Positions 7,947 to 16,639 of a DNA stretch of 44,740 bases are shown here, in pieces (position 1 is the stretch's first letter; each line of letters begins with the position of its first letter). Made by a program: the position numbers and the translations under genes. The notes beneath the pieces were generated by a model. It searched no databases. It was not told the origin of the DNA and was given only the letters and a program-made list of their open reading frames with translations. This DNA comes from a virus (taxonomy: Duplodnaviria; Heunggongvirae; Uroviricota; Caudoviricetes), in the IMG/VR virus record IMGVR_UViG_2617271072_000006, positions 1 to 44,740 of that record; one strand, given 5' to 3'.

Positions 7947-8021
7947 GGCTGAACTCCTGAAAATGGCTGTGAAAATATCGCCCGCGAAATGCCAGGCTGA
8001 TTAGGAAAACAGGAAAGGGGA

Positions 8022-8432
8022 TTAGTGATTCAGGCCGTTACCGCGTCCGTCGAGAAAAACTTCCACGAGCAAATCACGGGTATAAGTGCGCTCGATGCCG
8101 CGATGCAGATATAGCCGTCCGCGTAAATTAGCTGATGCAGTCCAGGTACCATCTTTGTGTTTGACCAGCATTCCTGGCATGACCGCACCTCGATTAACGG
8201 TCTGCGTTCCGTAATGTTGATGAACCATAAAAACTCCTGCCCGTAAGCTGGGCTGCTGAACATATAGAGACTTCTGCGCGTATTCAGGCGGTGGATGGCC
8301 GCCGGTTGTCATAACTAAGTCGCCTCGTTGAAGCGACTGAGGTATGAAGTGTTGAGTTGATTTCAGCTGGTCACACCGACGTTCACGCGTCCGCTTCACC
8401 CCTCGCACTCCCCGGAGCCTGCTGAAATTCAA
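8022..8432 (-). CDS. Hypothetical early-left protein in the kil/cIII position
   Basis: 136-aa ORF (possible internal start giving ~96 aa); no motif recognised; lambda-like sequence resumes at its 3' end. Confidence 0.4.
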
Positions 8433-8496
8433 GCTGCGGATCTAAGCGGTCATCGCAACGGTGAAGTTATAAATTTTTGTGATACCAACATCGATG

Positions 8497-8545
8497 CAAT
8501 AGCATGACAATAGCAATAGCTATTGGTGTAGTCAATAGCAATTAG
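8497..8545. promoter_or_regulatory. Cluster of CAATAGC / GCTATTG repeats including 12-bp palindrome CAATAGCTATTG: candidate left operator (OL) and pL region
   Basis: At least four copies of CAATAGC within 50 bp upstream of the early-left operon; the same TGCTATTG motif recurs between the repressor and cro-like genes. Confidence 0.4.
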
Positions 8546-8785
8546 TATTGATAATGTTTGATATACTTGTTCTGATTGATAATTAAATGAATTTTTATAA
8601 AAAAGAGTATGAAGACTTATTGGTGTGGCTGAAATTTGTACAGCTTTAATGTGCCTCGTGACAGAGGGGCATCGGGTTGTGGTGAGCTCGGTAGGTTGGC
8701 AGCAAATTTAATCGAATATTGGTAGTCTGAGTTCTTATGTGTATTTTTTTAGTCAGTTGCTAAATGATACATAAATGACTTATTA

Positions 8786-8810
8786 GCCCCGCCATCGCTT
8801 TGTACGGGGC
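8786..8810. terminator. Stem-loop immediately downstream of the SIR2-like gene stop
   Basis: GCCCCGCC ... ACGGGGC hairpin; T-rich tail only on the plus strand, so strand of action is uncertain. Confidence 0.35.
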
Positions 8811-8816
8811 GTTTAT

Positions 8817-10419
8817 TTAATTTATCTTTTCAACATTTCCATGAATCAACAAGTCGTAGGCAAGAAATAGTTTCCTATACTGGGTTTTTAAATTGTCAAC
8901 GTCGCATGCCTTGAATTGAACAAACGCTTCTTTTTTAACATAATCTTCAATCTCCTCTTTGGGGATATTTTTTATGTTCTTAATGACTATAGACAATTCT
9001 TTGTACTTTTTGAACTTTGCATCCTTTATATCTTTGATGTTGGTGTAAATTTTATTTGCATTGATTTTATCTAAGGTGATTTTATTGAGCAAGTCGTCTA
9101 GTTTTCCGTGGCGTTCAATGCGTTGATTTAGTTTTAACACATATTTAGCTGGCAAACTTAACTCTTTCAAATTACATGAGGTTATAGTTTTTGAAAATGG
9201 AAGTTGTAATGAGTTTACTGAACCTAATATGAAATCTATGGCTAATTTATTAGATATTTCATTTTTATTAAATAAGTAGTCTTCAAGATAATTTATTTCT
9301 TTAACTTGTGTGAATACATACTTTTTATCGCCTAGAGCAACAACTAAATTTTTTCCTTGTTTAACACTTTCTTCAAGTCTGTCTAAGTCAGAAGGTGAAA
9401 CCAATAGAGTATCTAAGTGCCCTTTTTCACCCTCATTAATGATAAGTGTTTTAATGGCTCTTTGATACCTTAAAACATCATAAGGTGAGAGCCCTTCATC
9501 AACAGCACTGATCTCATCATAGATCTGTTTATAGTTATCTGTTTTAACAGATGTATATGTAATTTGTAGCTGTTGATCGGTAATCTGTTTTGGTACTACT
9601 TCCTGTTCATTCTCTTTATATTCAATCAAAATTATTCTTTCAGCTGATTTTCGACCATCTTCTCTAGGTAGTTGTGAGGAAAAATCAGAAAGAAGTTTCT
9701 TTACATTCCTGTCAGTTAAAGAATATCCAAGAAAAACTATTGGATTTTTAATCATGTTAGATAGTATCTTGGCACTAATGAGTATAGATTTGTTGTCATA
9801 TTTTTCGTAATCATCTTTATTTATGATTATTGAGTGTGGATCCTTTATATCACCATGTATTTTGTATAACTCACTCCAGCCAATAGTATCTTCGAAAAAA
9901 CCATTATTTCCAATATAGAGTTTTGGAGTTATATTTTGCTCTTGAAGTAAATTTTCTATGAAAGCATCATAATTTGTAGTGATGATTATCTTGGCCTTTT
10001 TTATTAATGTTTTAAATGATGCTAATTCATCAAGATTTACATCCTTTCTGATTGTGTTATTAGAAAATCTTTGGCATATGGCGTATTTAAATGGTGAAAT
10101 ATCTTCACTAAAAACCCTCTTGGCATCTAGTCCATTTAATTTTAATTTGCCAGTCCTAAACAATAGATTGTAATCATTTTCAATTTTACTTGCTGCCTCT
10201 GTATAAATCTTATGATCGATATCATTATCACTGTTATTTTTATGTGATTCTTTTATTGTTAAAAGATAACTATAGAAATCATTTGTGGGATTTGTTATTT
10301 TCCAATACTCGTTTAATAGCTCTTCCCACGTTGGGTAGTTCTCTAAATATATTTTTGAAATGCCTGAGCCAATAAAGACTATTGGGTAATTTTTGAATTC
10401 AAAATTTTTTTTTTGACAT
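8817..10419 (-). CDS. SIR2-like (SIR2_2/ThsA-type NADase domain) protein with uncharacterised C-terminal region; N-terminus frameshifted as assembled
   Basis: ORF 8817-10163 carries IIITTNYD, YKIHG and VFLGYSLTD motifs; the same frame upstream encodes the FIGSGIS glycine loop but has no start codon; ATG at 10419 with RBS is out of frame by one base across a T10 run (10405-10414). Confidence 0.7.
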
Positions 10420-10531
10420 ATCCATATACCTTAAGCTCTGCTTGAAACATCCATTCTATAAATTATGAGGATGTCAGCATGTCTCACCAAAACATCATCT
10501 GGTTATCTTGATGAAATCTGTCATTAATAAT

Positions 10532-11223
10532 CTACCCATGTTTTCTATATGTCTGTGGCATGCTCCCAATAACTTTCCCAAATATAAATACCCGATTCAT
10601 TTCGTCTTTTTCGATCGGGTCCCACGGTGAGTAGCTCTTGTTATCAGAGATAACCAGCAGCTTATCCTTCATCATTTGCAGGCGCTTTACATGGGCTGTG
10701 TCGTCGTACAGAAACGCATAGATACCATCACCGTCGAAAGATTTAACAGTGATATCAACGAACAGAAGATCACCTGGTTCGATCGTTCCTGACATGCTGT
10801 CACCGCGTACGTTAATGATGCGGATATTTTCTGCCTTCCTGCCATCGAACATGTGACGAGCATCGTCAAACGAGTACTCAACCGAGCGTAGGACTTCTAC
10901 AAACTCACGGTTGATGACACCCGGCCCAGCACTGACTTCTATATCAAGAACGTCAATTTTGAAGTATTTGGAATGGTTGACAGCAGGCTTCCCTGATTGT
11001 TGACCGTCATTTCTCATCGGGCCTATGCCTGATGAGAGCCACTCTGTTCGAACACCCAATGCATTAGCTATTTCAACAATTTTGTTGAGCCGCGTGCGTT
11101 GCCGCTTGTCAGTCTCCAGATTGTGGGTTGAGCTACGCCAGACGCCTTTGCAAGAGCGCCTTGAGACATTCCAGATTGTTCCATCGCTAGGTTTAAGCGA
11201 TCAGCAAGAGTTTCTTTTTTCAT
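10532..11223 (-). CDS. cI-like prophage repressor (N-terminal HTH + C-terminal S24 LexA-type peptidase domain); frameshifted as assembled
   Basis: HTH ORF 11068-11259 (QGALAKASGVAQPTIWRL) and peptidase ORF 10532-11059 (GDSMSGTIEPGDLLFVD...VKRL...K) join if the T4 run at 11080-11083 were T5; likely ATG at 11223. Confidence 0.8.
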
Positions 11224-11235
11224 AAGTTTTAATTT

Positions 11236-11300
11236 ATACGCTTGCGTATTGATGGTCAAAACACGTTTTGCTATTGATTGGATTAATACGCATTGCTATT
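11236..11300. promoter_or_regulatory. Right operator/promoter region between repressor and cro-like gene
   Basis: Perfect palindrome ATACGCTTGCGTAT (11236-11249), imperfect copy (11285-11300) and TGCTATTG motifs; TATAAA -10-like element 8 nt upstream of the repressor ATG, consistent with a leaderless pRM-like transcript. Confidence 0.5.
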
Positions 11301-11333
11301 ATCCATTCATTGTAATACCAATAGGAATTGATA

Positions 11334-11561
11334 ATGACAAATCAAACCATTCAACTCGCAATCAGTATTACAGGTAGTCAAAAACGACTGGCAGATCTAT
11401 GCGGTGTAGCCCAGCCCACTGTTTGGCGTTGGCTACACGGTGGCGGAATTGATGCCCGCTATGTAATGAAAATTGTCTCAGCCACTGGTGGAAAGATTAA
11501 ACCAGCAGATATTCGTCCCGACCTTGCACCATTGTTTAACGCGAGTAATTCTGCCGCCTAA
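11334..11561 (+). CDS. Cro-like / YdaS-like HTH regulator
   Basis: 75-aa product from ATG 11334 (AGGA 7 nt upstream) with HTH LADLCGVAQPTVWRW; divergent from the repressor. Confidence 0.75.
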   Translation: MTNQTIQLAISITGSQKRLADLCGVAQPTVWRWLHGGGIDARYVMKIVSATGGKIKPADIRPDLAPLFNASNSAA

Positions 11562-11585
11562 ACTGCGGCGTTAACTGATAAGGCA

Positions 11586-12131
11586 ATGACTATGCAACCA
11601 CTTACATACCAACAGACTAGCGGATTTAGCCCGACTGCGGTGATAAATCGTTCTCAAATAAAACAGGTGCCAGGCCACGAAAAAATCCGTGATGCCGTTC
11701 GCGCGTGGTCGGCTGCAGATAATCAGGATGTTGTTGCCGCACTCATTGTGAATGAGTATCGGGAGCAGGGCGGCGGCACCATCGATTTCCCTGATGATGT
11801 CAGCCGTGCACGCCAGAAGCTGTTCCGCTTCCTCGATAACAAATTCGATTCTGAAAAATACCGAAATAACGTGCGTGAACTGACCCCGGCAATTCTGGCG
11901 GTACTACCGCTGGAATATCGCGGCCACCTGGTTGAGCAGGATAGCTTCATGGCTCGGCTGGCTGAAATGGAAAAGGAACTCTGTGAGGCAAAGCAGGCGG
12001 TCATTCTCAACGCACCACGCCACCAGAAACTGAAGGAAATGAGTGAAGGTATTGTGTCGATGTTTCGTGTGGACCCGGATCTGGCTGGTCCATTAATGGC
12101 GATGGTTACCACCATGCTGGGGGCAATATGA
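11586..12131 (+). CDS. YdaT-like regulatory protein (CII-position)
   Basis: 181-aa ORF; NEYREQGGG...LTPAILAVLPLEYRGHL resembles Rac YdaT as recalled; follows the cro-like gene as in Rac ydaS-ydaT. Confidence 0.6.
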   Translation: MTMQPLTYQQTSGFSPTAVINRSQIKQVPGHEKIRDAVRAWSAADNQDVVAALIVNEYREQGGGTIDFPDDVSRARQKLFRFLDNKFDSEKYRNNVRELTPAILAVLPLEYRGHLVEQDSFMARLAEMEKELCEAKQAVILNAPRHQKLKEMSEGIVSMFRVDPDLAGPLMAMVTTMLGAI

Positions 12132-12217
12132 CAGGTTCAGAAATGGCGAAAGCCGGTCTGCGGGAACAGAGCCGACTTTCAGGTGCAAATCGTAACGCAC
12201 TCATTGCGGAAGGAATT

Positions 12218-13147
12218 ATGGCAAACACTGCTGAGATATTCAATTTTCCAGTGCCGGATGAGGCACAAAAGGAGCCGCGCGTGGCAGATCTCGATGATGG
12301 TTATACGCGCATTGCAAATGAGTTGCTGGAAGCTGTGATGCTGGCCGGATTAACACAGCACCAGCTTCTGGTCTTCCTGGCTGTCATGCGCAAAACATAT
12401 GGCTTTAATAAAAAACTGGATTGGGTGAGCAACGAGCAACTGTCCGAATTGACCGGGATATTGCCGCACAAGTGTTCTGCTGCAAAAAGTGTTCTGGTAA
12501 AGCGTGGGATTTTGATTCAGAGCGGGCGGAATATCGGTATTAATAATGTGGTCAGTGAATGGGCAACATTACCCGAATCAGGTAAGAAAAATAAAGTTTA
12601 CCTGAAAGAGGTAAATTTACCTGAATCAGGTAAGAAAAGTTTACCCAAATCAGGTAAAGGCGTTTACCCGAATCAGGTAAACACAAAAGACAAACTAACA
12701 AAAGACAATATAAAACCTTTTTCGTCCGAGAATTCTGGCGAATCCTCTGACCAACCAGAAAACGATCTTCCTGTGGTGAAACCAGATGCTGCAATTCAGA
12801 GCGGCAGCAAATGGGGGACAGCAGAAGACCTGACCGCCGCAGAGTGGATGTTTGACATGGTGAAGACCATCGCGCCCTCAGCCAGAAAACCGAATTTTGC
12901 AGGGTGGGCTAACGATATCCGCCTGATGCGTGAACGTGATGGACGTAACCACCGCGACATGTGCGTGCTGTTCCGCTGGGCATGCCAGGACAACTTCTGG
13001 TCCGGTAACGTGCTGAGTCCGGCCAAACTCCGCGACAAGTGGACCCAGCTCGAAATCAACCGAAACAAGCAACAGGCTGGCGTGACAGCCGGCAAACCAA
13101 AACTCGACCTGACGAACACTGACTGGATTTACGGGGTGGATTTATGA
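12218..13147 (+). CDS. O: Replication initiator O-like protein (lambda-type C-terminus, divergent N-terminal iteron-binding domain)
   Basis: Start ATG 12218 preceded by AGGAA; N-terminus parallels lambda O (VADLDDGY...LRKTYG), ori iterons embedded in the coding sequence, stop overlaps the P start. Confidence 0.85.
   Translation: MANTAEIFNFPVPDEAQKEPRVADLDDGYTRIANELLEAVMLAGLTQHQLLVFLAVMRKTYGFNKKLDWVSNEQLSELTGILPHKCSAAKSVLVKRGILIQSGRNIGINNVVSEWATLPESGKKNKVYLKEVNLPESGKKSLPKSGKGVYPNQVNTKDKLTKDNIKPFSSENSGESSDQPENDLPVVKPDAAIQSGSKWGTAEDLTAAEWMFDMVKTIAPSARKPNFAGWANDIRLMRERDGRNHRDMCVLFRWACQDNFWSGNVLSPAKLRDKWTQLEINRNKQQAGVTAGKPKLDLTNTDWIYGVDL
12569..12680 (+). repeat. ori iterons: five 17-bp direct repeats TTACCYRAATCAGGTAA (one degenerate) followed by an A-rich tract, inside the O gene
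   Basis: Repeats at 12569, 12598 (variant), 12617, 12641, 12664, then A-rich 12681-12720; same architecture as ori-lambda. Confidence 0.8.
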
Positions 13148-13845
13148 AAAACATCGCCGCACAGATGGTTAACTTTGACCGTGAGCAGATGCGCCGGATC
13201 GCCAACAATATGCCGGAACAGTACGACGAAAAGCCGCAGGTACAGCAGGTAGCGCAGATCATCAATGGTGTGTTCAGCCAGTTACTGGCAACTTTCCCTG
13301 CGAGCCTGGCTAACCGGGATCAGAACGAACTGAACGAAATCCGCCGCCAGTGGGTTCTGGCTTTCCGGGAAAACGGGATCACCACAATGGAACAGGTTAA
13401 CGCAGGAATGCGCGTAGCCCGTCGGCAGAATCGACCATTCCTGCCATCACCCGGGCAGTTTGTTGCCTGGTGCCGGGAAGAAACATCCGTTACCGCTGGG
13501 CTGCCAAACGCCAGCGAGCTGGTTGATATGGTTTACGAGTATTGCCGGAAGCGTGGCCTGTATCCGGACGCAGAGTCTTATCCATGGAAATCAAACGCGC
13601 ACTACTGGTTGGTTACCAACCTGTACCAGAACATGCGGGCCAATGCGCTGACTGACGCGGAATTACGGCGTAAAGCTGCCGATGAGCTGACCTGTATGAC
13701 CGCGCGAATTAACCGTGGTGAGGCGATACCTGAACCAGTAAAACAACTTCCTGTCATGGGCGGTAGACCTCTAAATCGTGCACAGGCTCTGGCGAAGATC
13801 GCAGAAATCAAAGCTAAGTTCGGACTGAAAGGAGCAAGTGTATAA
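13144..13845 (+). CDS. P: Replication protein P (DnaB helicase loader)
   Basis: 233-aa ORF matching lambda P over its length as recalled (MKNIAAQMVNFDREQMRRIANNMPEQYDEKPQVQQVAQIINGVF...). Confidence 0.95.
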   Translation: MKNIAAQMVNFDREQMRRIANNMPEQYDEKPQVQQVAQIINGVFSQLLATFPASLANRDQNELNEIRRQWVLAFRENGITTMEQVNAGMRVARRQNRPFLPSPGQFVAWCREETSVTAGLPNASELVDMVYEYCRKRGLYPDAESYPWKSNAHYWLVTNLYQNMRANALTDAELRRKAADELTCMTARINRGEAIPEPVKQLPVMGGRPLNRAQALAKIAEIKAKFGLKGASV

Positions 13846-13944
13846 CGGGCAAAGAGGCAATTATTCATTATGAGTAACTTTCTAAATTTTTTTGAGCCAG
13901 ATTAGTGGTCTTGGATTCAGTTTACGTCTCAGATACTGAGAAGA

Positions 13945-13959
13945 ATCACAATTTGTGAT
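13945..13959. promoter_or_regulatory. 15-bp perfect palindrome ATCACAATTTGTGAT upstream of the PRTase-like/NADAR operon
   Basis: Dyad symmetry ATCACAA-T-TTGTGAT about 90 bp upstream of ATG 14050, in the AT-rich leader of the cargo island. Confidence 0.35.
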
Positions 13960-14049
13960 ACATGTTAACATTATGACTTTTAAGGCTTTAACTGAATTAT
14001 TTTAAGAGTATTCTGACCCTTTCGTATCAATGCATGAACAGGAATCCAC

Positions 14050-15069
14050 ATGTGTTACAGTAATGTTACAGATCGTGATCTTATGGGGCAAATTGCTACT
14101 AAACTAAATGACTATCGAAACCCTCCTCAAGGTGGCATGAGCATTGATCATGTTAATCGATGGATTAATCAATTTGAGTTAACTGATAGGCGATTTGTCT
14201 TAGAGGAAACGGACCGATTAATGGGGATTGGATACTTTTCTGAGAACGACTATCGCAGGGTTATTAGTAGTATCGCCACTGATGAGCAAAATGAAAGTTT
14301 CTTTCAAACTGCAGCGTTTCTCGATATTCAGAACCAAGGTACCAGTCAATCTGAGTTTTTGGATTTACTTCGAGAAGATTGTGTAGAAGAATTCAACGTT
14401 GTGACCAGACTTTCACAACGTCAAAGAGTTAGTTCATTCCGTGAATTTATTTACGTTGACGATGTTTTATTCTCCGGAGCTAAGGCAATCAATGATTTAA
14501 TTTGGTTTATTGAGCACTTTAAACTCCAAAATATTACAATATTGGTGTACTTTTTAGGTGGGCACACATATTCAACATGGAAGATAAAAGACCAACTTGA
14601 ACGAAGATTTGCGGGCAGAAATATTTCAGTTGGCGTTGGTGGAGGTGAGTTTGTATTTGTTGAAAATAAACTCCGAAATAGTTCGAATTCGGAGGTTTTA
14701 TGGCCAAAAGCGCAAAGTGTATCAATACCTGAATGGGCTGACGGTCAAATACATTATTTAGGAACATATCGAAACGGTTACGTCGCGAATAAAATTTTTC
14801 CTGATGAGCAGAGACGTGATCGTTTTGAAACTATTCTGACAAAAGTTGGGTTTGATATCCTTGGTCATAGTCAAAATCCCTCTGCTGTCATAAAGCCCTT
14901 AGGCTTTTCAACTTTCAATGGTGTTGGGTTTGGCGGAACTATCTTTACTTTCAGAAACTGCCCAAATAATACCCCTCTCGCGTACTGGTGGGGAACTTAT
15001 CTTCGAACAGGAAATAGAGCTCTGGATTGCTGGTATCCACTTATGAAGCGTAATGTGTATAATCGGTGA
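14050..15069 (+). CDS. Phosphoribosyltransferase-fold (type I PRTase-like) protein, function unknown
   Basis: 339-aa ORF in an AT-rich island; residues 133-147 FIYVDDVLFSGAKAI fit the PRPP-binding signature of type I PRTases; AGGA RBS; stop lies 3 nt before the NADAR ATG. Confidence 0.5.
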   Translation: MCYSNVTDRDLMGQIATKLNDYRNPPQGGMSIDHVNRWINQFELTDRRFVLEETDRLMGIGYFSENDYRRVISSIATDEQNESFFQTAAFLDIQNQGTSQSEFLDLLREDCVEEFNVVTRLSQRQRVSSFREFIYVDDVLFSGAKAINDLIWFIEHFKLQNITILVYFLGGHTYSTWKIKDQLERRFAGRNISVGVGGGEFVFVENKLRNSSNSEVLWPKAQSVSIPEWADGQIHYLGTYRNGYVANKIFPDEQRRDRFETILTKVGFDILGHSQNPSAVIKPLGFSTFNGVGFGGTIFTFRNCPNNTPLAYWWGTYLRTGNRALDCWYPLMKRNVYNR

Positions 15070-15071
15070 TC

Positions 15072-15682
15072 ATGAGCTATAGACTATACCTGTTTCACAA
15101 CACAGTTTCTTTCAGGAAAACCACCGAGAAATGGGGTGGTCTTTCCAACATGGCCAAAGGATATCCGCTCTTCGTTAATGGTATACCCATTCAATCGAGT
15201 GAAATTCTTTACCAAGCATGCCGATATCCAGACTATCCAGATATCCAAAGGGTTATTATTACCCAAGCCAACCCTTACGAAGCTAAACAAACCGCCAGAA
15301 CCTTCGAGGCCAAAACCCGTACTGGTTGGGAAAAAATCGAGTTTCGGTAATGAAATGGTGTGTCTGCGTTAAGCTTTGCCAGAACTGGGAATCGTTCTTC
15401 GCGCTATTGGATAGCACAGGAGATCATGACATTGTTGAGCACTCAGAGAAGGACCAATTTTGGGGGGCTAGTAAGGACTCCGAAGGTAACTTTTATGGCA
15501 TGAACGTGTTAGGTCGTATCCTTATGGATGCGAGAGATATTGCAAGAAAGAAGGGGCCTGCAGGGTTTGCTACGATACCGCCGCTACCCTTGGATAGGTT
15601 TCTTCTGCTCGGGGAGCAAATACGTGATGTCACTTTCTCTCCACCACCGATGGATTCAGGGCAAAGCTTATCGCTTTTTTAA
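15072..15682 (+). CDS. NADAR (YbiA-like N-glycosidase) domain protein; frameshifted as assembled
   Basis: ORFs 15066-15350 and 15326-15682 together align to YbiA as recalled (LSNMAKGYP...SSEILYQACRY, then WEK..VMKW...IVEHSEKDQFWGA...GMNVLGRILMDAR); frames join if the A6 run at 15331-15336 were A7. Confidence 0.75.
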
Positions 15683-16153
15683 TGTGGCTGTTGTTCCTCT
15701 CTCGGTCGTGACAGTTCTGCAACCCCGCTTTGGCGGATTTTTTATAAATTATGCAACTTATTGACTTGATACCGATATTTCAGACTTTAACATAGCAGCC
15801 AAAATCTAGGACGAAGGCGACAAAGTAAACGTTGAATTGGCTGCCATCGGCGTAGCGTTCAAAGAGTGGATGAATATGTCGGTTATAGCGGAAGCGGTGA
15901 TGCGTGAGCAGACATCGCTCTGCCCAAGGCATCCGCCCCTCGACATCTTAAGCAGGAAGGTGAAAAATGATAAGTGCAGAAGGACTGCAGCGGTTACTTA
16001 ATTTATCGGAGCCTCCATCTGATGAACTGATTGATGTTTATCTTCAATTCAGCATGATTTTTCCTAGGGTCGAACAAAGTTTTTTTTGGTGGCTTTGCTA
16101 AGGGGGAAGACAGTTTAAATTATGCTCGAACGTTACTTGACGCCGGGATAAAG

Positions 16154-16450
16154 GTGCCCAACGAACTTTTTCACGATTTTAAGCAGAGATACATTTTGAA
16201 CGGGGATGCGCAGGAAAGACTTGACGCCCTCTGTTTCGGTCGAGAGAGAGATAAGCGGGGAATAGTTAATGGGCTTCAAAATGACGCAGCAACAGATCTA
16301 AACACCATGTCTACAGTATTAAAGATAGTTATAAGGATAAGAAATAACCTTTTCCACGGAAATAAAGACGCTTATCTTTTTGTTGATTCTCAAGAGCAAG
16401 CGCAACTATTGAGATGGTGCGTGAGATTTCTCCAAGGATTATTAAATTAA
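16154..16450 (+). CDS. Hypothetical protein (possible R-x4-H HEPN-like motif); may extend upstream to ~15966
   Basis: 98-aa GTG-start ORF; a 44-codon ATG ORF from ~15966 fuses in frame if the T8 run near 16076-16083 were T7, giving ~161 aa; contains RNNLFH. Confidence 0.35.
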   Translation: MPNELFHDFKQRYILNGDAQERLDALCFGRERDKRGIVNGLQNDAATDLNTMSTVLKIVIRIRNNLFHGNKDAYLFVDSQEQAQLLRWCVRFLQGLLN

Positions 16451-16639
16451 TCTGCCTTTGATTTTCACTAATCAACTCGCCATAATCATGTCATCGGAGC
16501 CTGAACAACTCCGGTGACTTCTGCGCTAAACGGGGACGTTTATGCGCACATACAATCCAAACTCTCTTCTCCCTTCACAGATGCAGAAATGCACCTGCGA
16601 TTTTTTGCATCCAGCGCCTGACCTCTGCGGAGGTGAAGC

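What the first reader, a model, noticed from the sequence alone, without database searches (positions are those of the whole stretch)
14050..15682. Translationally coupled PRTase-fold + NADAR operon in the nin-region cargo island
A 339-aa protein with the type I phosphoribosyltransferase PRPP-binding signature (FIYVDDVLFSGAKAI, residues 133-147) ends 3 nt before the ATG of a NADAR/YbiA-family N-glycosidase gene. NADAR enzymes cleave ribosyl-N bonds, including ADP-ribosylated guanine made by DarT-type toxins; a PRTase-fold enzyme makes ribosyl-N bonds from PRPP. The pairing therefore suggests a writer/eraser module, either toxin/antitoxin-like or a phage counter-defence acting on NAD+/ADP-ribose chemistry. 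The island is AT-rich and replaces the lambda ren side of the nin region. The co-occurrence with a SIR2 NADase in the same prophage is notable. I do not recognise this as a named system.
Basis: partly seen in the sequence, partly recalled or inferred. Interest (0 to 1): 0.75.

Follow-up and report, generated by a model that had tools for sequence, protein, structure and literature searches.

The report
Known prophage defence pair DS-32
The two genes are a copy of DS-32, a prophage-carried anti-phage defence pair that was validated experimentally in 2025-26 but whose chemistry is still unknown, and the second gene is broken in this sequence by what is most likely a one-base sequencing error.

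Summary
The 339-aa PRTase-like ORF (14050-15069) is real and intact. The NADAR gene follows 2 nt after its stop codon, but in this window a 1-nt deletion in a poly-A run interrupts it (A6 at 15331-15336; A7 in every full-length relative checked). Five more homopolymer indels in the same near-identical stretch also split the cI repressor and SIR2, so an assembly error is the likeliest cause.

The pair is not unnamed. Both proteins pass NCBIfam's equivalog cut-offs for DS32_1 and DS32_2, and RefSeq already annotates the same proteins as anti-phage proteins. DS-32 was cloned and shown to protect E. coli (DefensePredictor, Science 2026). It is a defence system, not a counter-defence. It is absent from 50,697 phage genomes, and its co-occurrence with SIR2 is not conserved.

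The mechanism is unpublished. The PRTase belongs to the PRTase-CE family of retron type III-A effectors, which deplete PRPP. In all 84 related loci examined a NADAR gene lies directly downstream. In 38 of 80 species-level genomes that NADAR is fused to the HsdS subunit of a type I restriction-modification operon, a link I did not find described. I favour a toxin/antidote model: the PRTase makes a PRPP-derived N-ribosyl product and NADAR removes it.

The parts
13846..14049 (+). AT-rich leader between replication gene P and the PRTase gene, with an AGGA Shine-Dalgarno at 14040-14043. No consensus sigma-70 promoter was found by the simple scan.
   Evidence: GC profile
14050..15069 (+). DS-32A: PRTase-CE family phosphoribosyltransferase-like protein, 339 aa, intact. 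It equals WP_032217952.1 apart from E109D.
   Evidence: NF053875, 305 bits against a cut-off of 250; phrog_8525; PADLOC PRTase_III-A 1e-8
14446..14490 (+). Codons for residues 133-147, FIYVDDVLFSGAKAI, the PRPP-binding loop (acidic pair, three residues, then SG).
   Evidence: Y135, D138, F141 invariant; D137, G143 at least 90%
14953..14976 (+). Codons for residues 302-309, RNCPNNTP. R302, N303, C304, P305, N306, N307 and P309 are invariant; position 308 is variable. This is the 'PNNxP' motif described as typical of retron-associated PRTases.
   Evidence: motif described in PMC12746101
15067..15074 (+). Gene junction TGAtcATG: the PRTase stop codon, a 2-nt spacer and the NADAR start codon. An SD-like GGTGA overlaps the stop. 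Homologues have spacers of +1 or +2 nt, or overlaps of 1 to 11 nt.
15072..15682 (+). DS-32B: YbiA-subfamily NADAR gene, frameshifted in this window (frame A 15072-15350, frame B to 15682). The repaired 203-aa product equals WP_032217954.1.
   Evidence: (NF053876, 260 bits against a cut-off of 240)
15331..15336 (+). A6 homopolymer, the site of the 1-nt deletion (A7 in relatives).

Best explanation
This is an allele of DS-32, a two-gene anti-phage defence operon. Here it is cargo in the nin region of a lambdoid E. coli prophage.

Shown:
- Both proteins pass the curated DS-32 equivalog models.
- A related allele, cloned with its native promoter region, protects E. coli MG1655 from phages.
- The PRTase has a type I PRTase fold, a conserved PRPP loop, and the C-terminal PNNxP motif of retron type III-A effectors.
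- NADAR is an obligate genomic partner and keeps its catalytic residues.

Inferred mechanism (about 0.4 on its own):
- DS-32A is the effector. When unleashed by infection it consumes PRPP by transferring 5-phosphoribose to a nitrogen acceptor. The acceptor could be a nucleobase, free or in nucleic acid.
- This collapses nucleotide supply or damages nucleic acid and aborts the infection.
- DS-32B is the antidote. It hydrolyses that N-ribosidic bond and probably binds the PRTase, as NADAR does for DarT1 and YarT.
- Translational coupling keeps the two proteins in a fixed ratio.

The frameshift in NADAR in this window is most likely an assembly error. The identification as DS-32 stands at about 0.95.
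For: Identity:
- NF053875 scores 305 bits (cut-off 250) and NF053876 scores 260 bits (cut-off 240).
- RefSeq annotates the same proteins as 'anti-phage protein'.
- The window proteins are 51% (PRTase) and 82% (NADAR) identical to the validated WP_000097610.1 and WP_032260665.1.

Defence:
- The DS-32 clone gives -log EOP 3.7 on Bas26, 1.6 on RB69, and smaller plaques on T5, SECphi18 and Bas67 (methods).

Effector analogy:
- The PRTase hits Pfam PRTase-CE and PADLOC PRTase_III-A at 1e-8 over residues 34-334.
- In Retron-Eco11 the PRPP motif is essential for defence, and PRPP falls by about 50% on activation.
- ShosT is a PRTase toxin.

Partner:
- NADAR lies directly downstream, on the same strand, in 84 of 84 loci.
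- E44, K72, R83, W86, R90, E123 and W131 are at least 92% conserved.
- The best match among solved structures is YbiA, at 4e-12.
- NADARs act as antidotes to DarT1 and YarT by hydrolysing a base-ribose bond.
- YbiA-type enzymes are reported to cleave N-glycosidic bonds of riboflavin intermediates. That these are 5-phosphoribosylamino compounds is my own knowledge.

Protective role:
- NADAR is fused to the self-marking component of two unrelated restriction-modification-like systems: a full-length HsdS in 38 of 80 genomes, and the HmaB adenine methylase in 2 of 80.

Frameshift as error:
- Across window 8000-16500 there are 6 single-base homopolymer indels against about 6 substitutions relative to A3024 and A35.
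- Four of the indels break genes (SIR2, cI, NADAR, a 160-aa ORF), including the repressor needed for lysogeny.
Against: - No experiment has shown toxicity of DS-32A, its acceptor substrate, or any NADAR activity on its product.
- The Retron-Eco11 PRTase was not toxic when expressed alone.
- One natural single-chain PRTase-NADAR fusion (P0129) fits poorly with an antitoxin that must be lost or degraded. It fits better with two consecutive enzymatic steps.
- If the A6 frameshift is real, the host tolerates an intact PRTase without NADAR, which argues against a simple toxin/antidote pair.
- The validated allele differs by 49% in the PRTase, so the activity and phage range of this allele are untested.
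- No convincing promoter was found upstream by the consensus scan.
Confidence: 0.55

Rival explanations
1. Co-effector futile cycle. The PRTase and NADAR act one after the other, not against each other. The PRTase joins PRPP to a base, and NADAR hydrolyses the product back to base plus ribose-5-phosphate. Together they hydrolyse PRPP catalytically. Both enzymes would be needed for the abortive effect, and the pair would be controlled by something else.
For: - A single-chain PRTase-NADAR fusion exists.
- NADAR catalytic residues are nearly invariant, and NADAR is conserved more strongly than the PRTase: about 49% against about 30% identity in distant loci.
- PRPP falls when the homologous retron effector is activated.
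- ShosT couples PRTase activity with a second hydrolytic activity.
Against: - An unregulated cycle would drain PRPP in uninfected cells.
- No third regulatory gene is conserved next to the stand-alone pairs.
- Fusion of NADAR to the methylation or specificity module of R-M-like systems fits a protective role better than a killing one.
- The fusion protein is known from one 3-kb metagenome contig only.
Confidence: 0.2
2. Restriction-guard model. The PRTase is held silent by binding NADAR. In the ancestral form NADAR is part of the type I R-M complex through its fusion to HsdS. Phage anti-restriction proteins that disable the complex release the PRTase as a second line of defence. This would resemble PrrC held by EcoprrI (my own knowledge of that system). 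The prophage stand-alone pair would be a detached version with a different trigger.
For: - The operon order is hsdM-PRTase-NADAR::hsdS-hsdR in 38 of 80 genomes, and the fusion appears to be the only S subunit (no separate hsdS was found by phmmer).
- Some operons carry an extra GmrSD/HEC-05-like gene.
- The C-terminal tail of stand-alone DS-32B aligns with the linker that precedes HsdS in the fusions.
Against: - It does not explain why NADAR's catalytic residues are so strictly conserved.
- The E. coli version works in MG1655 without a fused HsdS.
- There is no interaction data.
Confidence: 0.15
3. The NADAR frameshift is real. In this strain the gene is a pseudogene, and the prophage carries an orphan PRTase.
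For: The sequence as given has A6. Natural inactivation of the other gene occurs: an IS5 element sits in the PRTase of strain ETEC1732, and strain OW968011 has a truncated PRTase.
Against: - None of the 26 uninterrupted full-length E. coli matches listed has the shorter length.
- The window carries five more homopolymer indels within 8.5 kb of otherwise near-identical sequence. They split the cI repressor and SIR2.
Confidence: 0.12
4. Phage counter-defence or metabolic cargo. In this reading NADAR removes host DarT-type ADP-ribosylation, or the pair rebuilds NAD+ or nucleotides for the phage. Alternatively it is ordinary salvage plus riboflavin damage control.
For: Phage gp30.3 NADARs neutralise DarT1. 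The model's fold matches salvage PRTases.
Against: - The cloned pair reduces phage plating.
- There is no DNA or protein match in 50,697 phage genomes.
- The NADAR has the YbiA-type Glu, not the phage His or the DarT1-linked Asp.
- No salvage PRTase Pfam or NCBIfam family is hit, and 200 extra residues flank the PRTase core.
- The pair recurs inside R-M operons.
Confidence: 0.03

Closest known systems
DS-32 (DefensePredictor; DeWeirdt, Mahoney & Laub, bioRxiv 2025 / Science 2026; NCBIfam NF053875 + NF053876)
   Same: The same two-gene architecture (PRTase-like gene, then NADAR). Both equivalog cut-offs are passed. The nin-region prophage location is the same in E. coli genomes that carry the validated-type allele (e.g. 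strain L73). The identical proteins are already annotated as anti-phage proteins in RefSeq.
   Different: This is a divergent allele. The PRTase is 51% identical to the validated one (36-45% over residues 1-250, 73% over 251-338) and the NADAR is 82% identical. This allele has not been tested. NADAR is frameshifted in the window.
Retron type III-A effectors (e.g. the Retron-Eco11 PRTase)
   Same: The same Pfam family (PRTase-CE), a match to the PADLOC PRTase_III-A model, a PRPP loop, and the C-terminal PNNxP motif. In the retron the effector lowers PRPP and causes abortive infection.
   Different: There is no reverse transcriptase and no Rfam-recognisable RNA here. The partner is a NADAR enzyme instead of RT-msDNA.
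DarTG1 (DarT1-NADAR) and YarT-YbiA toxin-antitoxin pairs
   Same: In those pairs a NADAR acts as antidote by hydrolysing a base-ribose bond made by the toxin, and in DarT1-NADAR the toxin gene comes first. A NADAR gene likewise follows the PRTase gene here.
   Different: The first gene here is a PRPP-type PRTase, not an NAD+-using ADP-ribosyltransferase. The published structural comparison found no similarity between DS-32A and DarT. The NADAR is of the YbiA/Glu subfamily, as in YarT-YbiA, not the BC4488/Asp subfamily of DarT1 partners.
ShosTA
   Same: A PRTase-domain toxin that disturbs purine metabolism, in a two-gene defence system.
   Different: The partner there is a DprA-like DNA-binding protein. 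DS-32A does not match ShosT models in PADLOC.
E. coli YbiA (PDB 2B3W), riboflavin-intermediate N-glycosidase
   Same: It is the best sequence match among solved structures (4e-12) and shares the VEH-Glu signature. TIGR02464 scores 69.7 bits, just under its cut-off of 73.7.
   Different: DS-32B has a roughly 45-residue C-terminal tail and a dedicated PRTase partner. It falls below the cut-off of the riboflavin-type family.

Membership tests
DS-32 | First protein matches NCBIfam NF053875 (DS32_1_antiphage, equivalog) above its cut-off | tested here: met
   305.4 bits against a cut-off of 250, over residues 12-334
DS-32 | Second protein matches NCBIfam NF053876 (DS32_2_antiphage, equivalog) above its cut-off | tested here: inconclusive
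   Met only after restoring one A: 260.1 bits against a cut-off of 240. As it stands in the window the gene is split, and the first fragment scores below Pfam's NADAR cut-off.
DS-32 | The two genes are adjacent, on the same strand, with PRTase first | tested here: met
   2-nt spacer; the same order in 84 of 84 related loci
DS-32 | Confers anti-phage protection | not testable with these tools
   Shown only for the allele WP_000097610.1 / WP_032260665.1
Retron type III-A | Reverse transcriptase and msr/msd ncRNA next to the PRTase effector | tested here: not met
   The neighbouring genes are P, NADAR, ninB and others. There is no RT ORF and no Rfam match in the window.
Retron type III-A | PRTase-like effector with a PRPP loop and the Gx14PNNxP motif | tested here: met
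   PADLOC PRTase_III-A at 1e-8; RNCPNNxP is invariant, although the spacing to the conserved Gly is 13 rather than 14
DarTG1 | DarT-type ADP-ribosyltransferase toxin | tested here: not met
   The first gene has a type I PRTase fold. The published comparison found no similarity to DarT.
DarTG1 | BC4488-subfamily NADAR (Asp in the last strand) | tested here: not met
   Glu (IVEHS, E123) aligns with YbiA's VEHT
ShosTA | DprA-like ShosA partner | tested here: not met
   The partner is a NADAR
Type I PRTase salvage enzymes (Hpt/Gpt/Upp/Apt/PyrE) | Core fold with a PRPP-binding loop | tested here: met
Type I PRTase salvage enzymes (Hpt/Gpt/Upp/Apt/PyrE) | Sequence membership in a salvage family | tested here: not met
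   Only PRTase-CE is hit in Pfam at E up to 1. There is no salvage NCBIfam hit and no PDB sequence match.

The most novel reading that the evidence does not exclude
DS-32A may attach 5-phosphoribose from PRPP to nucleobases in DNA or RNA. That nucleic-acid modification has not been described. The YbiA-type NADAR would erase it. The pair would then be a PRPP-based counterpart of DarT/DarG. In its widespread form it would be wired into restriction-modification complexes through NADAR::HsdS and NADAR::methylase fusions, placing the eraser on the machinery that marks self DNA.
Probability: 0.2. Interest if true: 0.85.

Novelty: already known. Interest (0 to 1): 0.3.

Why it matters
For this window the result is mainly corrective. 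The 'unnamed' module is DS-32, and the broken NADAR gene is probably an artefact. More broadly, DS-32 is a validated defence system with no known chemistry. It sits in a family of PRPP-using effectors (retron III-A, ShosT, Ophion OpnC) that target nucleotide supply. The comparative data collected here give concrete handles for working out how it acts. NADAR pairing is obligate. The PRTase evolves faster than NADAR. NADAR is repeatedly fused to HsdS or to an adenine methylase, and the PRTase to LRR, Sel1, FGE-sulfatase, HRDC or BRCT domains. These data also suggest a link between restriction-modification and an abortive-infection back-up.

Tried and rejected
1. Programmed -1 frameshifting at GGGAAAAAAT. 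Rejected because the aligned relatives have an in-frame A7 and all listed full-length matches are one base longer, so no shift is needed.
2. A retron. Rejected because there is no RT ORF and no Rfam match.
3. Counter-defence or a gene of lytic phages. Megablast and tblastn against 50,697 phage records found nothing.
4. Sequence search of the PDB with the PRTase found nothing meaningful. Fold searches were needed instead.
5. The promoter/terminator scan found no consensus promoter upstream and no clear terminator after NADAR. A 4-bp hairpin plus a T-run at about 15725-15745 is weak. The inverted-repeat scan was uninformative.
6. SIR2 linkage. Rejected as a conserved feature.
7. Literature searches for 'PRTase-CE', and for NADAR together with HsdS or restriction-modification, found no description of the fusion in the held library. 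Subscription papers such as de Souza & Aravind 2012 could not be checked.
8. PADLOC gives only a weak hit of NADAR to candidate PDC-M42C (4.5e-8). The PRTase does not hit that candidate system.
Full report
**What is in the sequence.** The window is a lambdoid prophage of E. coli. Its closest relatives lie next to icd in strains A3024, A35 and OkiPb01694. The replication genes O and P end at 13845. A 204-nt AT-rich spacer follows, and then an ORF at 14050-15069 encoding 339 aa. GC falls to 0.39-0.42 across 13.5-15.5 kb, against about 0.51 on both sides. The quoted motif FIYVDDVLFSGAKAI is at residues 133-147.

**The NADAR gene is broken in this window.** The PRTase stop codon (TGA, 15067-15069) is followed by 'tc' and an ATG at 15072. 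The spacer is thus 2 nt, not 3. From that ATG the reading frame closes at 15350 after 92 codons. The rest of the NADAR domain is in the -1 frame and runs to 15682. The two pieces match NADAR model positions 2-89 and 87-160. The break lies in a homopolymer: A6 at 15331-15336, where the aligned relatives A35, SCU-485 and A3024 have A7. Every uninterrupted full-length match listed in complete E. coli genomes spans 1634 nt against the window's 1633. Restoring one A gives a 203-aa protein identical to WP_032217954.1. The PRTase differs from WP_032217952.1 only by E109D.

**The frameshift is probably an artefact.** Between 8000 and 16500 the window differs from A3024 and A35 by about six substitutions. 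It also differs by six single-base homopolymer indels, at 8474, 10405, 11080, 13887, 15331 and 16080. Four of these break genes:
- the SIR2 gene, just after its start codon;
- the cI-type repressor, whose HTH and S24 peptidase halves become separate ORFs;
- NADAR;
- a 160-aa hypothetical gene.

A lysogen with a split repressor is hard to reconcile with a stable prophage. I put the chance that the NADAR lesion is real at about 0.12. A programmed frameshift is not needed, because relatives are in frame.

**What it is.** NCBIfam holds two equivalog models named for this pair. NF053875, 'phosphoribosyltransferase-like anti-phage protein', scores 305 bits against a cut-off of 250. NF053876, 'NADAR family anti-phage protein', scores 260 bits against a cut-off of 240 for the repaired protein. 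RefSeq annotates the identical proteins in this way. The name comes from DefensePredictor (bioRxiv 2025; Science 2026). DS-32 is one of the transcription units that were cloned with their native promoter region into MG1655 and that reduced plating or plaque size.

- The validated instance is NZ_QOXQ01000027.1 48629-50261, encoding WP_000097610.1 (343 aa) and WP_032260665.1 (203 aa).
- Its recorded effects are -log EOP 3.7 on Bas26, 1.6 on RB69, 0.9 on SECphi18, 0.6 on T5 and 0 on Bas67, all with smaller plaques.
- The authors state no mechanism. They note that DS-32B resembles the DarTG NADAR antitoxin while DS-32A is unrelated to DarT, and they suggest toxin-antitoxin partner swapping.

**How this allele relates to the tested one.** The NADARs are 82% identical. 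The PRTases are only 51% identical: 36-45% over residues 1-250 and 73% over residues 251-338. In 5426 complete E. coli genomes, 63 carry the pair. They fall into three sequence types: at least 99% identity (3 genomes), about 95% (41) and about 77% (19). In the four loci I inspected the pair always lies between P and ninB. One genome has an IS5 element in the PRTase gene, and one has only the first 458 nt of it. The neighbouring SIR2 is present only in the three near-identical prophages. In SCU-485 the slot holds HipA+DUF3037 and in L73 it holds BamE.

**The PRTase.**
- Pfam places it in PRTase-CE (PF24390, 2e-39, whole model). No salvage PRTase family is hit.
- PADLOC's best hit is the retron type III-A PRTase, at 1e-8 over residues 34-334.
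- An AF2 model built on 28 homologues is confident (pLDDT 89.4, pTM 0.87).
- Invariant residues include Q94, G97, S99, Q100, the PRPP loop (Y135, D138, F141, with D137 and G143 nearly invariant), and the block PLG...GFG...RNCPNNxPL..W.G...W.PL..R.
- The PNNxP motif is the one reported as characteristic of retron-associated PRTases. In Retron-Eco11, mutating the PRPP motif abolishes defence, and activation lowers PRPP by about 50% and leads to abortive infection. That effector was not toxic when expressed alone.

**The NADAR.** The repaired protein matches Pfam NADAR at 1.9e-23. Its best solved relative is E. coli YbiA (2B3W, 4e-12). It carries the YbiA-type Glu (IVEHS, E123) rather than the Asp of DarT1-linked NADARs or the His of phage gp30.3. 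YbiA-type enzymes are reported to cleave N-glycosidic bonds of riboflavin intermediates and to remove ADP-ribose from guanine in vitro. A YbiA-family member is the antidote of the ART toxin YarT.

**The pairing is obligate and much wider than E. coli.**
- Homologues at 31-47% identity in Klebsiella, in Serratia and in a metagenome all have NADAR immediately downstream.
- A scan of one genome per species returned 80 loci from Proteobacteria, Planctomycetota, Chloroflexi, Acidobacteria, Verrucomicrobia and others.
- An iterative HMM search found a NADAR ORF directly downstream, on the same strand, in all 84 loci examined.
- E44, K72, R83, W86, R90, E123 and W131 are at least 92% conserved among these partners.
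- NADAR is also the slower-evolving partner. Its median core identity to the window is 49%, against 25-34% for the PRTase in the same loci.
- The PRTase family comprises 1224 clusters at 50% identity with E up to 1e-3.

**An undescribed context.** In 38 of the 80 species-level loci the NADAR ORF is 700-930 aa long and is fused to a full-length type I specificity subunit. The fused part matches Pfam Methylase_S and PADLOC Specificity_I at 3e-92 over residues 266-679. The operon order is hsdM-PRTase-NADAR::hsdS-hsdR, sometimes with a GmrSD/HEC-05-like gene after hsdM. In two further loci NADAR is fused to a DUF1156/HmaB adenine methylase (PADLOC 2.7e-298). The remaining pairs stand alone, some next to an integrase, a prophage tape-measure gene or a Pox_D5 primase.

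PRTase-CE itself occurs fused to several other domains:
- NADAR, in a single chain (one 3-kb metagenome contig);
- HRDC;
- BRCT;
- LRR;
- Sel1 repeats;
- an FGE-sulfatase domain.

I found no description of the HsdS fusion in the searchable literature. Some relevant comparative-genomics papers are not in that library.

**Mechanism.**
- Shown: a defence phenotype for a related allele, an intact PRPP-binding PRTase fold, membership in the family of a PRPP-depleting retron effector, and an obligate NADAR partner that looks catalytically competent.
- Inferred: the PRTase is the effector and NADAR its antidote. The PRTase would transfer phosphoribose from PRPP to a nitrogen acceptor, and NADAR would hydrolyse exactly that kind of bond and probably also bind the PRTase.

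I prefer this reading for three reasons. NADAR plays this role for DarT1 and YarT. NADAR is repeatedly fused to the self-protecting (methylating or recognition) part of R-M-like systems. The fast-evolving, sensor-domain-decorated partner is the PRTase.

The main rival is a two-step futile cycle that hydrolyses PRPP catalytically. It is favoured by the single-chain fusion and by NADAR's strict catalytic conservation. A third idea is that the R-M complex guards the PRTase through the fused NADAR and releases it when phage anti-restriction proteins attack the complex, as with PrrC and EcoprrI (my own knowledge). Counter-defence and ordinary salvage readings are effectively excluded. The clone protects against phages, there is no homologue in 50,697 phage genomes, and no salvage family is hit.

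**Verdict.** Novelty is 'already known'. Interest is modest. It rests on the unsolved chemistry and on the R-M fusion context found outside the window.

Noticed in passing
window 8817-10418 (-): A SIR2-family gene lies in a 29-32% GC island beside the repressor. It is intact (533 aa) in A3024 and A35, but here it is frameshifted just after the start codon by T10 in place of T9 at 10405, leaving a 448-aa ORF.
   Followed up: partly
window 10532-11259 (-): The cI-type repressor (XRE HTH plus S24 peptidase, 230 aa in relatives) is split into 175-aa and 63-aa ORFs by a homopolymer indel at 11080. This is the strongest sign that the window's indels are assembly errors.
   Followed up: partly
window 15837-16450 (+): A small variable slot lies downstream of DS-32. 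It holds a DNA polymerase III theta (HolE)-like fragment (Pfam 1e-6, below cut-off; annotated as a pseudogene in A35). It also holds a 160-aa hypothetical gene (WP_000622059.1) that is split here by T8 in place of T7 at 16080. SCU-485 has different content in this slot.
   Followed up: partly
L031:1787-9018, L017:564-7901 and 36 other loci: Type I R-M operons have a PRTase-CE gene inserted between hsdM and an hsdS gene whose product carries an N-terminal NADAR domain. I did not find this described in the searchable literature.
   Followed up: yes
L081:58-8601, L016:63-9020: NADAR is fused to an HmaB/DUF1156 adenine methylase, again preceded by PRTase-CE. In L081 a TmtA-like 1272-aa gene lies upstream of PRTase-CE; L016 has a 1077-aa upstream ORF that did not match it.
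   Followed up: partly
L006:1943-6006: In a metagenome contig a PRTase-CE homologue carries an N-terminal BRCT domain. It follows a 406-aa NAD-dependent DNA-ligase N-terminal part and a 135-aa HhH ORF, as if ligA had been split and its BRCT captured. NADAR follows.
   Followed up: no
L089:1307-2929 (P0129): A single 540-aa ORF joins PRTase-CE directly to NADAR. It is known from one 3-kb metagenome contig, so a lost stop codon cannot be excluded.
   Followed up: partly
proteins P0185, P0089, P0161, P0080, P0121: PRTase-CE homologues carry N-terminal LRR, Sel1 or FGE-sulfatase domains or a DnaJ-like segment, or a C-terminal HRDC domain. These look like sensor or nucleic-acid-binding add-ons.
   Followed up: partly
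L002:601-2327 (SCU-485); L001:10907-11710; L007:2226-3404: Other prophage cargo was seen. HipA-family kinase plus DUF3037 sits in the SIR2 slot; both domains were newly validated in defence by the same DefensePredictor study. A DUF3800 gene lies near Q in the E. coli prophages and directly upstream of the pair in Serratia fonticola.
   Followed up: no
E. coli ETEC1732, NZ_CP122823.1 3850784-3853617: An IS5-family element (ISKpn26) interrupts the PRTase gene while NADAR stays intact. This is a natural knock-out of the presumed effector.
   Followed up: no
E. coli K-12 ybiA-ybiB (from PMC11125620): The chromosomal YbiA NADAR sits in a LexA-controlled operon together with YbiB, a DNA-binding TrpD2-type protein with predicted PRTase activity. 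This is a second, non-homologous NADAR-PRTase association.
   Followed up: no
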